This document shows, piece by piece, positions 19,556-61,245 of a DNA stretch of 64,000 nucleotides. The first letter of the stretch is position 1; the number at the start of each line of letters is the position of its first letter. The stretch is from Octopus sinensis. Lineage: Eukaryota. The DNA is taken from positions 13,764,001 through 13,828,000 of the forward strand of contig NC_043002.1 in assembly GCF_006345805.1 (NCBI RefSeq), given 5' to 3'. Below the pieces are notes generated by a model that saw only the letters and a list, made by a program, of their open reading frames with translations, was not told the origin of the DNA and did no database searches. The translations under genes were made by a program, and so were the position numbers.

Positions 19556-19820
19556 ATATAAAATATTAGAAAAAAAACACCTTTTATCAATTCAAAATGA
19601 ATAATTAAATTACACTATCTAGAAAATTACATATAATGTACTGTATAAAATAGGTAAATACCTATTTTATACGTTACATTATTCTTGTAATTTACTTAAT
19701 CTTTACTTTTTAATTGTTATTTTAATTTTAACTTTTCTATTATATGTAGTTTTCTAGATGGTGTAATTTAATTATTCATTTTGAATTAATAGAAGGTGTT
19801 TTTTTCTAATATTTTATATA
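19556..19820. repeat. AT-rich fold-back element: ~80-bp inverted arms plus an inner hairpin
   Basis: TATAAAATATTAGAAAAAAAACACC...CTAGAAAATTACATATAAT (19556-19637) is inverted at 19740-19820; inner palindrome GTATAAAATAGGT-AAAT-ACCTATTTTATAC. Confidence 0.8.
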
Positions 19821-42779: not shown

Positions 42780-44718
42780 ATGGTGACAATGTTGCACCCG
42801 GCAGGCTCAGAGATTATTGTCCGGTTCCAGCCTGACGATGTCCAGAAAGGGACCACCACACACGGCGTAGACGGAGCCAGAAAATTAATGCTGTGGTCAT
42901 GGAGTGTTACTACATAATAAAACCGGTAGATGAAAATGATGCTCCAATTTGGGGTTACTGACAACGTATGCATGATCATTGTAGATAAAAATGATTGTTT
43001 CAACACACAGAACATAGATTATGTTATGAAGCTAGAACACGAAGAAGAAAATCGTTGGTTTACAGAAGTAGAGATCGATACTATCAAAGGATGGGCCTTG
43101 GGAAATAGCAGCAGAGATAACGATGAAAATACAATTTATACTAATATAAGTAATCTCATAGCACAGGAAAGGAGCACTGGTAGCTTACTTGACGAGAGGT
43201 ATAAAGATGATCTAAAAGAAGACAATAAATCTAATGGCGACATGACAAAGGAACAAAAGGCAATCTACGACAGAATACAAGAGAACGATAGCGACATAAT
43301 TTGCAACCTTAAAAGGTTGATCGGTGGAAACTGAGCCAAGAAAGGAAAAAAAAGAAGAATACACGCAGGGTTAGACATGCCCTCGAAAGAAAATTTCTGT
43401 GTTAGACCGAAAAGACAAAGGGAGCTTAAAAGCAAGCAAAATTACAGGGCGCTGAAAAAGAAGTATAATATTGAAAGAAAGGGCCTGAAAGTGATATTGG
43501 TGGAACTGAAACAGCGCCTTGTTGCAAAGAAGGCAAAGATGGTAAGATAGGACCAAAGAATGAAGGATTACCACCACAATAGATCAGAATAAATCAGAAG
43601 CGATTCTACAAAGAAATAAATGGAGAGTGTAAAGATGAAAAGATGATACCAGATAAAATTGAAAGTGAAAGGTTTTGGAGTGACATCTGGAGCAGACACG
43701 GAGCACAAGAAGGATGCTGAATGGTTGCAAGAACTGAAACAACCAGAAGCCTGTCCAAAACAGGCAGAACTAGTCGTCTCAGTCAAGGACGTGAAGGAAA
43801 TCAGCAAACAAAATAAGCAACTGGAAGGCTCCGGGACCACATGGAGTTCAAGATTACTGGATCAAAAGACTTGGTGAATGTCATACACAAATTGCTGCGT
43901 AACTCAACACCTTGTTTAATGCCGACCTAGGAACACCAGGGTAGGACAGTGCTGTGCCTGAAAAACATCGAAAAAGGTGATAAGGTAGGCCGATATCCTA
44001 TTTGTCACTTATGTGGAAGTTATTGACTGGAATACTCACAAAGTCAATGTACGAACATCTGCCAAAAAAAAATGGAGTACTGCCACATGAGCAGAAGGGT
44101 TGCAAGCATAAGCGCAGAGCTACCAAGAATTAACTCTTGATAGACAAAACTGCATTTAAAGATTGCAAGGGAAGGGAATATAAGTTAGCCATGTCATGGA
44201 TCGACTATCGTAAGGTGTTCGATAATGTCCCACACTCTTCGATAATGAAATGTATGAACCAATTTGGTATTGCATCGAATATTGAGCAATTGCTTGGAAA
44301 AAGTATGGTGAATTGGAGGACGGACCTAACAGCATATGGAAGAAGTTTAGGAACAGTAGGAATCAAGAGGGGCATCTTCCAAGAGGACTGACTGTCCCCA
44401 CTGATCTTTGTACTCTGCTTGATACCACTAACATTGAAACTGAGGAAAGACAAGATGGGTAAGTATTCAAAAGCCGCCAGCAAAAAGTCAACCATTTGTT
44501 ATTCATGGATGACCTCAAACTTTATGGTAAAAATGAAGCCCAAGTTATTTCCCTCGTTGATACGGTTATATCTTCAGTTCTGATATCAGAATGGAGTCCG
44601 GATTGAGAAAGTGTGGTGCGTTAGTCTTGAAGAGGGGCAAGATCAACATGCATGAACGGGCTATCGATACCGTCGGGGGGAGATTATGAAGTAGATAGAA
44701 GAGACGGGCTACAAGTAT
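42780..44718 (+). mobile_element. R4/Dong-type LINE, N-terminal and RT region, pseudogenised and 3'-truncated
   Basis: RRRRSQKINAVVMECYY; EQKGC; IDK..KDCK..LAMSWIDYRKVFDNVPHS; RGIFQED*LSPL; VNHLLFMDDLKLYGK. Confidence 0.88.
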
Positions 44719-44810
44719 ATATATATACATATTTATATATATTGTTTATATTATTATATGATCGAACGCCACGCATCATTTTTCAAGTTTCATATATGTA
44801 TATGTGTGTG

Positions 44811-45066
44811 TGTGACAATTATTCGGTAGCCAAGATAAACCTCCGAGTTTCGGATGCCGAGGTGGAAATCCACGCCACCATCTCTTCAGTTATCCGATGG
44901 CCGGATAACTGAAGAGATGGTGGCGTGGGTTTCCACCTCGGCGTCCGAAACTCGGAGTTTCATCTTGGCTACTGAATAATTGTCACATAATACATTTACA
45001 GATAAATACCTCTATTTACATAATATCGAGGTCGCTTTCTTTCTTTTGATAGCTTACCGTTTTTAT

Positions 45067-45109: not shown

Positions 45110-45388
45110 CGTGACCGGCCAGGTTATCAGATGAGCTACACAATGCTGGTCATAATGCGCTTCGCATTGTTTTAGCCTTCAAATGACGCCACCCCGCTGG
45201 CTAAGCGAGTAGGCCAACAGAAGAAAGAGTGAGAGAAAGTTGTGGCGAAAGAGTACAGGAGGGATCGCCACCACCCCGTGCATGAGCCTCGTGGAGCTTT
45301 AGGTGTTTTCACTCAATAAACACTCGACGCCCAGCCTGGGAATCGAAACCGCGTTCCTACGACCGCGAGTCCGCTGCCCTAACCACTG

Positions 45389-45391
<3 letters not shown>
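45107..45391 (-). mobile_element. tRNA-derived SINE, family A (head clipped)
   Basis: Reverse complement CCCAGTGGTTAGGGCAGCGGACTCGCGGTCGTAGGAACGCGGTTTCGATTCCC. Confidence 0.85.
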
Positions 45392-45465
<74 letters not shown>

Positions 45466-45585
45466 CAACAATCAAGGAGGCCATAATAGGCCATTCACCC
45501 ACTAGAAATAACAGCCAAAGCTTCAACCGCAAATAAAAATCAATTCCGTAAACCAGGAGAAAATTTAAAAAACATTTACCCTGTA

Positions 45586-45692
45586 ATTTCTTATACGATG
45601 CACCGTTTCATCTGCTGTTTAATGGTAAACTAACCTGATTAAATTAAATCAAGCCAATCTTCCATAGGCCCTCAGATTCTTCAGTAAGAAAT
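45586..45692 (-). ncRNA. Type I hammerhead ribozyme (mirror copy)
   Basis: Reverse complement of 46170-46276. Confidence 0.85.
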
Positions 45693-46169
45693 AGCCAAGA
45701 CGGAACAGATATTTTCACGAGGCATTTCCGACCCTGCCAAGGCAATATCTGACCTAAAATTTTCAAATCATCGCACTCGCGCCAAATTATCGGCAGCAAA
45801 TAAATATAAGCCGTCGATTCCATTACGGAATTAACCAGAAAATCATAATTAATCAATATAGGGTGGCAAAAAAATTTTGTAGAATTTTTTTGCCACCCTA
45901 TATTGATTAATTAAGCCGTCGATTCCATTACGGAATTAACCAGAAAATTCATAATTAATCAATATAGGGTGGCAAAAAATTTTGTAGAATTTTTTTGCCA
46001 CCCTATATTGATTATGAATTTTCTGGTTAATTCCGTAATGGAATCGACGGCTTATATTTATTTGCTGCCGATAAATTTGGCGCGAGTGCGATGATTTGAA
46101 AATTTTAGGTCAGATATTGCCTTGGCAGGGTCGGAAATGCCTCGTGAAAATATCTGTTCCGTCTTGGCT

Positions 46170-46276
46170 ATTTCTTACTGAAGAATCTGAGGGCCTATGG
46201 AAGATTGGCTTGATTTAATTTAATCAGGTTAGTTTACCATTAAACAGCAGATGAAACGGTGCATCGTATAAGAAAT
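46170..46276 (+). ncRNA. Type I hammerhead ribozyme, intact, GUA triplet
   Basis: ATTTCTTA-CTGAAGA-ATCTG...CAGAT-GAAA-CGGTGCATCG-TA-TAAGAAAT; 8-bp stem I, 5-bp stem II base, near-palindromic stem III. Confidence 0.87.
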
Positions 46277-46500
46277 TACAGGGTAAATGTTTTTTAAATT
46301 TTCTCCTGGTTTACGGAATTGATTTTTATTTGCGGTTGAAGCTTTGGCTGTTATTTCTAGTGGGTGAATGGCCTATTATGGCCGTTCCTTGATTGTTGAT
46401 GTTGAACTTAAAAATGGTCTATGACTATCTAATTTTTTCCCACTAGGCCGCTGGTGGCAAAAAAATTCTACAAAATTTTTTTGCCACCCTATATTGATTA

Positions 46501-46558
<58 letters not shown>

Positions 46559-46615: not shown

Positions 46616-47170
46616 CATATATATATATACGTATATATATGCATACATATATGTTTGTATGTGTGTGTGATTGCATTTGCTTGTATGCGTATGTGCGCTT
46701 TTAGATATGTCTGTTTAGACTGAAATGTTTTCTTGTGATCATACTTCTGACAGAATATGCATAACATTTAATATCTTTCAAAAAATACTTCAGCTATATT
46801 TGCATAAATCCATTGAGAATTCATTCACATTATGCAATTTTCTGAAATCACCCATATATATATATATATATATACATAAATACATCACTTGTTTTTTTCA
46901 CAATACATTTCTTATATAAGTGTATTTGTTTATTGATGATGAAGCCACTTATAAATTATTTGTACATTTGCTACTTGAATGAGTAAAGAATTAGTTAATA
47001 TTTTTACTATTAAAATTAACTATTCGGAGACTTTTAACCTGTCGCTGTGAAATGAAAGAAAAATTATGAATATAAATATCAGAGGAAAAGAGAATGTTTT
47101 CCTTATTGATCTAATGCACGCATTATATAATCGCAGTTCATATAATGTACAACATTGATGATACATAATG

Positions 47171-47554
47171 GATGGAAGCACTCCGTCGGTTACGACGACG
47201 AGGGTTCCGGTTGATCCGATCAACGGAACAGCCTGCTCGTGAAATTAACGTGTAAGTGGCTGAGCACTCCACAGACACGTGTACTCTTAACGCAGTTCTC
47301 GGGGATATTCAGCGTGACGCAGAGAGCGACAAGGCCGGCCCTTTGAAATACAGGTACAACAGAAACAGGAAGTAAGAGTGAGAGAAAGTTGTGGTGAAAG
47401 AGTACAGCAGGGTTCCCTCCACCCTGCCGGAGCCTCGTGGAGCTTTTAGGTGTTTTTGCTCAATAAACACTCACAACGCCCGGTCTGGGAATCGAAACCG
47501 CGATCCTACGACCGCGAGTCCGCTGCCCTAACCACTGGGCCATTGCGCCTCCAC
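47171..47554 (-). mobile_element. tRNA-derived SINE, family A, full length
   Basis: Complete head GTGGAGGCGCAATGGCCCAGTGGTTAGGGCAGCGGACTCGCG; 12-bp TSD TGATACATAATG. Confidence 0.92.
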
Positions 47555-48538: not shown

Positions 48539-48680
48539 TGTGACAATTATTCGGTAGCCATGATAAAACTCCGAGTTTATCATGGCTACCGAATAAATGT
48601 CACATATATTTACAGATAAATTCCTCTATTTACATAATATCGAAGTCTCTTTCTTTTGTTGTCTTGTCATTTCTATCAAT
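48539..48680 (+). mobile_element. Short fold-back copy of the 44811 family
   Basis: TGTGACAATTATTCGGTAGCCATGATAAA..TTTATCATGGCTACCGAATAAATGTCACA, followed by the same tail as 44988-45070. Confidence 0.8.
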
Positions 48681-53409: not shown

Positions 53410-53845
53410 GCGCAGCAGTGGCTGTGTGGTAAGTAGCTCGCTTACAAGCCACATTTTCCGGTTCACTCCCACTGCGTGTCTTCTACTATAGCCTTGATGG
53501 TGGATTTCGTAGGCGAAAACTGAAAGATGCCCGTCGTATATATATATATTATATATATATATATAATATATATCACATCAAGGAACGGCCATAATGGCCA
53601 TGGACCCACATGTGGGTGAATGGCCTATTATGGCCGTTCCTTGATTGTTGATGTTGAACTTAAAATGTCTATCTATCTATTTCTTTTTTCCTCACTATCC
53701 GCTGGTGCTAAAAGAATTCTATCAAAATTTTTTTCACCACCCTATATTTATTATGTATATATATATATATCTATGCTGAGACCCCCTTCGGCCATGAGAC
53801 AGACCATGGAAGACCAGCAGTCGCCCATGCATATATCTATCTATC

Positions 53846-59907: not shown

Positions 59908-60203
59908 TACAATTACTAAGAGGAATGTCACTAAAGTGCAATCCTATACACTAGAAATAGACGTCAAATCGCCCTACCACAAAGAGTGTGTTCTCAAGAA
60001 AAAACCCAGCAAACGCCAAAATTTAAAAGTTTAGCAAGGCAAATGAAAATTTACAAAATAAAACGATTATCTACGTATCATGATTTCATAACTAATGAAA
60101 TCATGTTTTTTTTTCTTGAGAACACCCTCTTTGTTGTAGGGAGATTCGACGTCTATTTCTAGCTTATAGGATTCCACTTTAGTGGTACTCCTCTTATTAA
60201 TTG
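59908..60203. repeat. Fold-back element with ~95-bp inverted arms
   Basis: AAGAGGAATGTCACTAAAGTGCAATCCTATACACTAGAAATAGACGTC..GTTCTCAAGAAAAAA is inverted at ~60107-60203. Confidence 0.8.
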
Positions 60204-60361: not shown

Positions 60362-60445
60362 TGTAGTACAATCGTTTCATGCTACTTCATTTTATTAAAC
60401 AATATATTACATCAATTTTATAATGTAGAGCACTCTTCAGCCACA
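60362..60445 (-). ncRNA. Type I hammerhead ribozyme, intact core
   Basis: Reverse complement TGTGG-CTGAAGA-GTGCT...AGCAT-GAAA-CGATTG-TA-CTACA. Confidence 0.78.
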
Positions 60446-61245
60446 TATGGAATTTTAAAAAATTAAATTGACAATGTTCATTATTATACTTATTCCATTT
60501 GCCAACACTACAAAGAGGGTAGGTATAAAGACAGAGAGGTGAATTTCATCAAGAAAAACATGGTAGTAGAAGAACTTAGTACATGGGCATATTTTTTATC
60601 ACTGAGTTCACTTGGGGAGGGGATTTTCTATTAAGTTCAGTGGAGACAATCGCTAACTCTTGTTTCCCCTATGTCTTGGAGTGAAGGTGTAAAACAATTC
60701 TGTGGATGGAGTCTACATTTCCTATCATGAAAATGCAGCTGCATTGTATCCCTTCTCACCAGATGAGCAGTAAATGAAGTAAATATATGCTTTCCTTAGT
60801 TTCAACCGTCTCCAGCAGATCAGAGTATATTTTTCCTCTCCTCTCCTTGAAATCGTGCGTTAACTGCTGATGTATCGTCTTGATATACAATTTATGACAC
60901 TTAATACCATGTTATGTAATGTATTCTGATCTCAGTCTCGTTGTGCAGTAAACCTGCAGCTGTGCGTAAGACTGAACTGCGTGTCCGAGGTAAACAGCTC
61001 TTCCAGTCGCTGGCTATTCGCATCAGTGGACGCAGATGATTGCGTAGTCTGTCTTCAATGCTGTTCATTGTGTCATCTCTGCCAACAACCTTCACCGGAC
61101 AGACAGTACTCCCTCTTCATCAAGAATTCAATAAAGGCACGTCGCTTTTCCTTGGATCCCCAGGGTTGCCATGAGGAAAGAACAAAAAGGAAGAATTACA
61201 ATAGAGGAAAACTAATAGACGTAGGTGTGTAATTTGAACGGTTGT

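What the first reader, a model, noticed from the sequence alone, without database searches (positions are those of the whole stretch)
45464..46502. 1-kb palindrome with an intact hammerhead on each strand and hairpin-delimited ~490-bp units
Seen: ~390-bp near-perfect inverted arms. A complete type I hammerhead lies at 46170-46276(+) and is mirrored at 45586-45692(-). The segment 46014-46502 is bounded at both ends by the hairpin ending TTTTGCCACCCTATATTGATTA. The hairpin occurs three times, with its loop flipped in the last copy (TTTTGTAGAAT vs ATTCTACAAAA). There is no ORF. Known: PLE pseudo-LTRs and non-autonomous retrozymes carry type I hammerheads, and PLE insertions often include inverted copies. 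Inference: a young non-coding ribozyme retroelement whose 3' hairpin may self-prime second-strand synthesis and so create the fold-back. Transcription from either side would give a self-cleaving RNA, and read-through would give long dsRNA.
Basis: partly seen in the sequence, partly recalled or inferred. Interest (0 to 1): 0.85.

Follow-up and report, generated by a model that had tools for sequence, protein, structure and literature searches.

The report
Two-armed insertion of a hammerhead retrozyme
This 1-kb palindrome is one of about a thousand similar insertions of a 490-base non-coding repeat that carries a predicted self-cleaving hammerhead RNA, and its two outward-facing arms were likely copied separately from two fixed start points by a Penelope-type retrotransposon enzyme; the element is of a known kind, but its copies help test how such inverted insertions form.

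Summary
The arms match over 383 nt at 99%. A type I hammerhead lies at 46170-46276(+), mirrored at 45586-45692(-), and the hairpin occurs three times. The locus is not unique. It belongs to a young family of 490-bp non-coding tandem units (1,826 exact hammerhead-core copies, about 1,000 insertions) sitting in (TA)n: a non-LTR retrozyme. Hammerhead stems covary across copies. In 66 of 68 single-inversion loci one arm ends at unit position 387 and the other at 489, 102 nt further: the Penelope-like element (PLE) 'tail' signature. An ORF-bearing PLE family here shows the same in 3 of 3 inverted copies. Inversion points are scattered, and in 20 of 66 loci neither arm is contained in the other, so hairpin self-priming is not the general cause. 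It explains only two inner junctions of this locus (2 of 96 loci show it). The 'flipped loop' is just strand orientation. Best model: a borrowed PLE enzyme primes both cut target strands at two fixed RNA sites, and the two cDNAs join by microhomology. Not shown: cleavage, circles, expression, the partner PLE. Known class, with modest mechanistic value.

The parts
45392..45465 (.). (TA)n target, left side
45464..45897 (-). Left arm: unit positions 440-490 then 1-387, ending at the fixed 'short' end (q387) against (TA)n
   Evidence: exact-match parse
45586..45692 (-). Type I hammerhead, mirror copy
45862..45897 (.). Junction 1: reverse-complement hairpin; its 13-bp stem is shared by the minus arm and the next plus piece (likely cDNA snap-back)
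45898..45913 (+). Short sense piece (q476 to q1), likely made by snap-back extension
45912..46002 (-). Second antisense piece (q440-490, q1-41); junction 2 overlaps by 2 nt, junction 3 lies in the hairpin at 45967-46002
46003..46502 (+). Right arm: q476-487, a 4-nt deletion scar, then a full unit q1-489 ending at the fixed 'long' end against (TA)n
46170..46276 (+). Type I hammerhead (8-bp stem I, long stem II, short stem III with UGCA loop); cut predicted after 46268
   Evidence: covariation
46366..46387 (+). 8-bp stem-loop 13 nt before the short end, kept by compensatory changes in the sister family; candidate protein-binding signal (inferred)
46401..46502 (+). 102-nt 'tail' between the two fixed ends, present on one arm only
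46453..46488 (+). Native terminal hairpin, 14 nt before the long end
46503..46551 (.). (TA)n target, right side
53577..53753 (.). Older, decayed short insertion of the same family with the same two-arm layout in (TA)n

Best explanation
This is one insertion of a young, non-coding 490-bp tandem repeat family with a predicted type I hammerhead (a non-LTR retrozyme), likely mobilised by a borrowed Penelope-like (PLE) reverse transcriptase-endonuclease that would cut both strands of a (TA)n target and prime one cDNA from each. Shown: the family, its (TA)n targets, two fixed ends 102 nt apart used one per arm, scattered microhomology junctions, and two arms of the same sub-lineage. Inferred: one cDNA starts at unit position 387 and the other at 489. 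Each runs a variable distance (70 nt to 11 units) along a circular or uncleaved multimeric RNA, since arms run through the predicted cut site. The two growing ends then anneal by microhomology and are filled in, which gives a palindrome whose arms point outward. In this locus the left cDNA likely snapped back twice on its own hairpin before it annealed to the right cDNA, which gives the 105-bp central duplication. The hammerhead likely cuts multimeric transcripts to unit length for circularisation.
For: Family: 890 first-look candidates, 40 scored, the 150 listed matches 96-100% identical, period 490. There are 1,826 exact 27-mers, 936 short-end+TA matches and 1,110 long-end+TA matches, the latter with some double counts. 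Of 96 distinct loci, 68 have one inversion, and 66 of these have one short and one long end. Nesting: neither arm contained in the other in 20 of 66, short arm within long in 32, long within short in 14. Of the 31 junctions without an insert, 20 overlap by >=2 nt, against 17% in a random null. Arms share non-majority variants in 51 of 69 inverted loci and rare variants in 19. Hammerhead covariation by locus: stem I T-A to C-G in 6 and A-T to G-C in 9; stem II G-C to A-T in 28; the only recurrent core change is at the free N7 position. A sister family about 71% identical keeps the stems by compensatory changes and uses the homologous two ends in 8 of 8 loci. An ORF-bearing PLE family here shows one short and one long end in 3 of 3 inverted copies. 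Literature: tandem plus inverted 5'-truncated copies with a tail on one end are typical of PLEs (bioRxiv 2021.04.23.441226, passages). A purified PLE cleaves and extends both target strands and starts at two RNA sites that bound the tail (PMC11167929, main text parts 1-2 of 4).
Against: No autonomous partner was found: BLAST and an nhmmer profile over 39 PLE-ORF loci matched only sister-family pieces lying beside an ORF. The tail is 102 nt, against 30-40 nt reported for PLEs. In vitro the anole PLE showed no difference in start site between the two strands, whereas the rule here is strictly one of each. 46 of 66 loci are nested, so each of those alone also fits fold-back copying. Twelve of 69 inverted loci show 1-4 discordant markers between arms (mostly near homopolymers, possibly errors). 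Of 96 loci, 26 show no BLAST-detectable second arm, though some have 10-20-nt stubs by eye. Cleavage and circular RNA were not shown, and 8 of 9 Xenopus retrozyme dimers did not cleave in vitro (bioRxiv 2026.07.22.740005, part 3 of 5).
Confidence: 0.72

Rival explanations
1. Self-priming fold-back: one cDNA folds on the 3' hairpin or another palindrome and copies itself, which makes the second arm.
For: Junctions 1 and 3 of this locus lie exactly in the hairpin stem, and L156 is similar. Seven of 66 loci have inner arm ends within 12 nt of each other, against 3.4 expected. Arms share variants. PMC3846280 infers self-priming from junction palindromes (passages). Over all three sets 17 of 132 inner ends fall in the hairpin zone against 10.8 expected (P=0.04).
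Against: In 20 of 66 loci each arm holds sequence the other lacks, so neither can be a copy of the other. Either arm can be the longer one (20 of 51 had the short-end arm longer). The hairpin excess disappears in the two sets not chosen for a full unit (8 of 76 against 6.2, P=0.28). The model does not explain why the outer ends are two different fixed sites.
Confidence: 0.12
2. The units are pseudo-LTR ends of a coding PLE family, or a satellite grown locally from them, and are not mobile on their own.
For: Retrozymes are homologous to PLE pLTRs in Xenopus, and local tandem growth is proposed there. Some arrays have repeating haplotype patterns that could come from unequal exchange (L058, L059, L068).
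Against: None of 100 fetched loci links the unit to an RT gene. ORF scans covered 60 of them; the other 40 were judged from the BLAST parse of their unit segments, with one 158-nt insert seen. About 1,000 dispersed insertions have precise ends.
Confidence: 0.06
3. A DNA-level rolling-circle or MITE-like element (Helitron/Helentron type, recalled) with a 3' hairpin and an AT target; the hammerhead is incidental.
For: A hairpin 14 nt before one end, tandem arrays and an AT-rich target (sequence; resemblance recalled, not tested).
Against: The hammerhead core and stems are under compensatory constraint. Inner ends are randomly truncated as in reverse transcription. A family encoding an RT-like ORF shows the same two-end layout.
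Confidence: 0.05
4. Long-read fold-back chimera or assembly artefact.
For: No contig in the four laid runs spans this whole locus. The best-covered run may come from the sample that was assembled.
Against: The two ends are different fixed sites and the flanks are unrelated. The same layout recurs in 66 of 68 single-inversion loci and in a sister family. Contigs of run X15 show many different arm-to-arm joints, and runs X1, X3 and X15 show TA loose ends at the fixed sites.
Confidence: 0.02

Closest known systems
Metazoan non-LTR retrozymes (PMC7229834; bioRxiv 2026.07.22.740005)
   Same: Non-coding tandem repeats of low GC (unit 37% GC) with one type I hammerhead per unit, dispersed as monomers to multimers, in a genome that holds PLEs.
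   Different: The unit is 490 nt, against 150-450 bp reported. Here most insertions are two-armed palindromes with two fixed ends in (TA)n. 'Inverted' occurs 0 times in the main text of PMC7229834 and once, in a reference, in the 2026 preprint. Those papers showed cleavage (and PMC7229834 circles) for their elements; neither was tested here.
EN+ Penelope-like elements (Penelope/Poseidon, Neptune, Naiad) and non-autonomous Chlamys derivatives such as MRC1
   Same: Partial tandems, an inverted 5'-truncated copy, a tail on one end only, a (TA)n target, and two start sites that bound the tail.
   Different: No ORF; the tail is 102 nt rather than 30-40 nt; no sequence link to an autonomous family was found; no target-site duplication can be read inside (TA)n.
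LINE-1 twin priming (recalled, not from a call)
   Same: Both target strands prime cDNA, and the two products join head to head by microhomology.
   Different: In LINE-1 the second primer lands at a variable internal site and the first cDNA stops there. Here both start sites are fixed and both arms can span many units.

Membership tests
Non-LTR retrozyme | Type I hammerhead motif in each tandem unit | tested here: met
   Motif scan; core and stems conserved or covarying over 101 loci. Rfam models did not match.
Non-LTR retrozyme | Short head-to-tail tandem units, low GC, dispersed | tested here: met
   Period 490, arrays of 1 to about 14 units on many contigs. Slightly longer than the reported 150-450 bp.
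Non-LTR retrozyme | No protein-coding capacity | tested here: met
   No ORF over the window feature. No RT ORF joined to units in 60 scanned loci; 40 more judged from their unit parse.
Non-LTR retrozyme | Self-cleavage of the RNA | not testable with these tools
   Only indirect: compensatory changes. Inner arm ends near the cut site number 7 of 132 against 2.4 expected, but two other 9-nt windows reach the same count.
Non-LTR retrozyme | Unit-length linear and circular RNAs in cells | tested here: inconclusive
   No listed holder is on record as RNA. A head-to-tail joint in run X3 fits a tandem array as well as a circle.
PLE-mobilised element | Inverted 5'-truncated copy with a tail on one end only | tested here: met
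   66 of 68 single-inversion loci; sister family 8 of 8.
PLE-mobilised element | AT-rich or microsatellite target | tested here: met
   Both fixed ends abut (TA)n about 1,000 times each.
PLE-mobilised element | Shared terminal sequence with an autonomous PLE | tested here: inconclusive
   No match in 39 PLE-ORF loci, but these sample only a few of the families behind 5,029 and 3,703 first-look candidates.
Autonomous PLE | RT plus GIY-YIG ORF | tested here: not met

The most novel reading that the evidence does not exclude
Two reverse transcriptases of one PLE dimer start at two fixed sites 102 nt apart on a single circular retrozyme RNA and chase each other round it, one from each cut target strand. 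The strict 'one short end, one long end' rule and the non-nested multimeric arms would then be the genomic record of double rolling-circle reverse transcription, and would explain PLE tandem/inverted structures in general.
Probability: 0.3. Interest if true: 0.68.

Novelty: new member of a known kind. Interest (0 to 1): 0.4.

Why it matters
The element class is known, and this locus is one of about a thousand. The value is mechanistic. How PLEs make their tandem/inverted insertions is called undefined in bioRxiv 2021.04.23.441226, and self-priming has been proposed. This short, young, high-copy family gives a large natural sample. It shows a near-absolute one-short/one-long end rule and many non-nested arms, which favours priming from both target strands. 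It also ties a retrozyme to PLE machinery by its insertion footprint rather than by homology. I did not find this footprint described for retrozymes in six full-text searches. These cover open-access papers only, and I read no supplements.

Tried and rejected
Rfam at gathering level and at E<=10: no hammerhead model matched, only generic hairpin hits. My first strict hammerhead regex found nothing and was replaced. Search for an autonomous partner: GIY-YIG search and 20 long loci; a search with the 163-nt 3' end (3 candidates only); end-anchored loci lacking the exact core (all non-coding); a second PLE family; a profile search. None shared sequence with the unit. Two loose ends from run contigs were searched as possible partner sequence: one is a single-copy flank, the other is absent. 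Expression: no RNA holder listed; runs guessed to be RNA hold the unit as contigs, which shows nothing about transcription. Enrichment of inner ends at the hammerhead cut site: nominal P=0.011 but matched by two other windows, so not used. Direct or inverted target duplications: none consistent after masking TA. The automatic end classifier missed many long ends and was replaced by alignment coordinates. Rows dropped before counts: L043, L134, L135 and L113 (repeats of insertions already counted), the second insertion in L050, a separate fragment in L114 and a stray hit in L048. Earlier findings of the scan: nothing returned.

Full report
Observation. The feature is as described. The arms 45479-45788 and 46074-46383 are 310 nt and fully complementary. 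The segment 46014-46502, called the unit below with positions q1-q489, matches the left arm over 383 nt at 99.2%. A motif scan of both strands found a type I hammerhead at 46170-46276(+) and its mirror at 45586-45692(-), with a cut predicted after 46268. The 118-nt region folds better than all 200 shuffles (z -3.6), although the lowest-energy fold does not form stem III. Rfam did not recognise the motif. Both ends of the feature abut (TA)n. The three hairpins are real, but the 'flipped' loop is strand orientation: the two central copies are reverse complements of a hairpin with a symmetric stem.

Family. The genome (2.7 Gb; by recalled SINE-like flanks probably a cephalopod, not tested) holds many copies. 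A search with the unit gave 890 candidates, of which 40 were scored; the 150 matches listed were 96-100% identical and lay in tandem with period 490. An exact 27-nt hammerhead core occurs 1,826 times, against 0 for the control. I fetched 100 loci in three sets: 40 best hits, 40 consecutive core-bearing loci on one contig, and 20 chosen by an end motif. 96 are distinct. None links the unit to an RT gene: ORFs were scanned in 60, and the other 40 were judged from their unit parse. A sister family about 71% identical, with period about 472, has 924 candidates.

The ribozyme is under constraint. Over 101 loci the only recurrent change in the catalytic core is at the free N7 position. Stem I shows T-A to C-G in 6 loci and A-T to G-C in 9; stem II shows G-C to A-T in 28. 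Loci are related, so these are few independent events. One pair at the base of stem II is mismatched in 20 of 92 loci. The sister family keeps stem II, stem III, a stem-loop at q353-374 and, less well, the terminal hairpin through compensatory changes (8 sequences). Activity itself is untested.

Architecture. Insertions sit in (TA)n and usually have two arms whose 3' ends, relative to the hammerhead strand, point outward. Of 96 loci, 68 have one inversion, 2 have three (this locus and L053), and 26 show none by BLAST; several of the last have 10-20-nt stubs by eye. In 66 of the 68, one arm ends at q387 and the other at q489. The exceptions are L121 and L124. Genome-wide there are 936 short-end and 1,110 long-end matches next to TA, the latter with some double counts. 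The sister family uses the homologous ends, one of each, in 8 of 8 loci. An ORF-bearing PLE family in the same genome (L169-L172; RT weakly matched by Pfam; Neptune-like by recalled motifs) has one short and one long end, with a tail of about 57 nt, in 3 of 3 inverted copies. This is the PLE footprint described in bioRxiv 2021.04.23.441226 (passages). PMC11167929 (parts 1-2 of 4 and passages) reports that a purified PLE cleaves and extends both target strands and starts at two RNA sites that bound the tail.

How the palindrome forms. Inner junctions are scattered over the unit. Of 66 junctions, 31 have no insert, and 20 of these overlap by 2 nt or more, against 17% expected. The other 35 carry inserts of 1-28 nt (one of 158 nt), several locally templated by eye. 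A fold-back copy must be contained in its template. In 20 of 66 loci neither arm is contained in the other; 32 have the short arm within the long and 14 the reverse. Self-priming therefore cannot be the only route, and either arm may be the longer. The hairpin is not a general turning point: 8 of 76 inner ends lie in it in the two less biased sets, against 6.2 expected; over all sets the count is 17 of 132 against 10.8. Both arms come from the same sub-lineage: 51 of 69 inverted loci share non-majority variants, 19 share rare ones, and 12 have a few discordant markers. In this locus both arms carry T at q149, where 148 of 156 segments of the best-hit set carry A. Arms run through the predicted cut site and can span up to 11 units, so the template was not a cleaved linear monomer. 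I infer a circle or an uncleaved multimer.

This locus. The parse, left to right: antisense q387 to q440 (45464-45897); a turn in the hairpin stem; sense q476 to q1 (45898-45913); a switch back with 2-nt overlap; antisense q41 to q440 (45912-46002); a second turn in the hairpin; then sense q476 to q489 with a 4-nt deletion (46003-46502). The simplest reading, which is inferred, is that the cDNA from the left target strand snapped back on its hairpin twice and its sense 3' end then annealed to the cDNA from the right target strand. It is rare: only this locus and L156 among 96 show it.

Artefact check. No contig of four public runs spans the whole locus. Run X15 (kind unknown, possibly the assembled sample) shows many different left-arm-to-right-arm joints (15 of 41 joints listed). 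TA loose ends occur at 46400 in X1, X3 and X15, and at 46500 in X1. Different fixed ends and unrelated flanks argue against a read chimera.

What is missing. No autonomous partner was found in 39 PLE-ORF loci. The sister-family copy beside an ORF in L169 is separated from it by (TA)n and is absent from three other copies of that PLE, so I read it as a separate insertion. Expression is open. The tail is longer than the 30-40 nt reported, and the in vitro study saw no strand difference in start site, so the one-of-each rule needs an asymmetry that has not been shown.

Comparison and verdict. By the testable features this is a non-LTR retrozyme as defined in PMC7229834 (passages) and bioRxiv 2026.07.22.740005 (parts 1 and 3 of 5 and passages), and it inserts like a PLE. 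It is a new member of a known kind. Other unrelated hammerhead repeats in this genome show the same layout by eye (L088, L092, L105), so the locus is ordinary for this genome. The interest lies in the family statistics, which argue against self-priming (PMC3846280, passages) as the general origin of PLE-type inverted insertions and for priming from both target strands. I found no description of this for retrozymes in six searches of open-access text. I read no supplements, and older subscription papers on Penelope may discuss the one-ended tail in more detail.

Noticed in passing
L058, L059, L068: Units within long arrays carry recurring haplotypes, roughly period 2 in L059 and period 4 in L068. 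This suggests a multimeric template or later unequal exchange rather than copying of one monomeric circle.
   Followed up: no
L169:5598-6182 and L173-L180: Sister retrozyme family, about 71% identical, period about 472, 924 candidates, with the same two ends and a GUC-type hammerhead.
   Followed up: yes
L088:7286-8370, L092:7860-8960, L105:6290-7045: Three further unrelated hammerhead-bearing repeats in (TA)n with two diverging arms, one short and one long end (read by eye).
   Followed up: partly
L090:2474-6174, L093:3839-7539: A young PLE family with two overlapping open frames (479 aa without a clear Pfam family, and 781 aa RT plus GIY-YIG), many copies about 99% identical, ending in (TA)n.
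   Followed up: partly
L169-L172: PLE family with RT-like frames of 748-907 aa, an asparagine-rich upstream region and inverted arms with a tail of about 57 nt.
   Followed up: partly
window 60367-60448 (-): Another type I hammerhead-like motif with an imperfect stem I, next to (TA)n, unrelated to the unit.
   Followed up: partly
L039:3027-3184: 158 nt of foreign sequence captured at the junction between the two arms.
   Followed up: no
L038 and L057 flanks: By eye the left and right flanks are short inverted copies of each other (about 20-35 nt); the masked alignment did not score them.
   Followed up: partly
window 44811-44987; 48539-48606: MITE-like palindrome with 86-nt arms at 94% and a shorter relative; other decayed palindromes at 19560-19815 and 59910-60203.
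   Followed up: no
window 44000-44720: Broken non-LTR reverse transcriptase fragment, recognised by eye from recalled motifs and not confirmed by a tool.
   Followed up: no
window 45130-45391 and 47170-47540: Two copies of a SINE-like repeat (families D13, D14, D20); the first ends at the (TA)n that holds the insertion.
   Followed up: no
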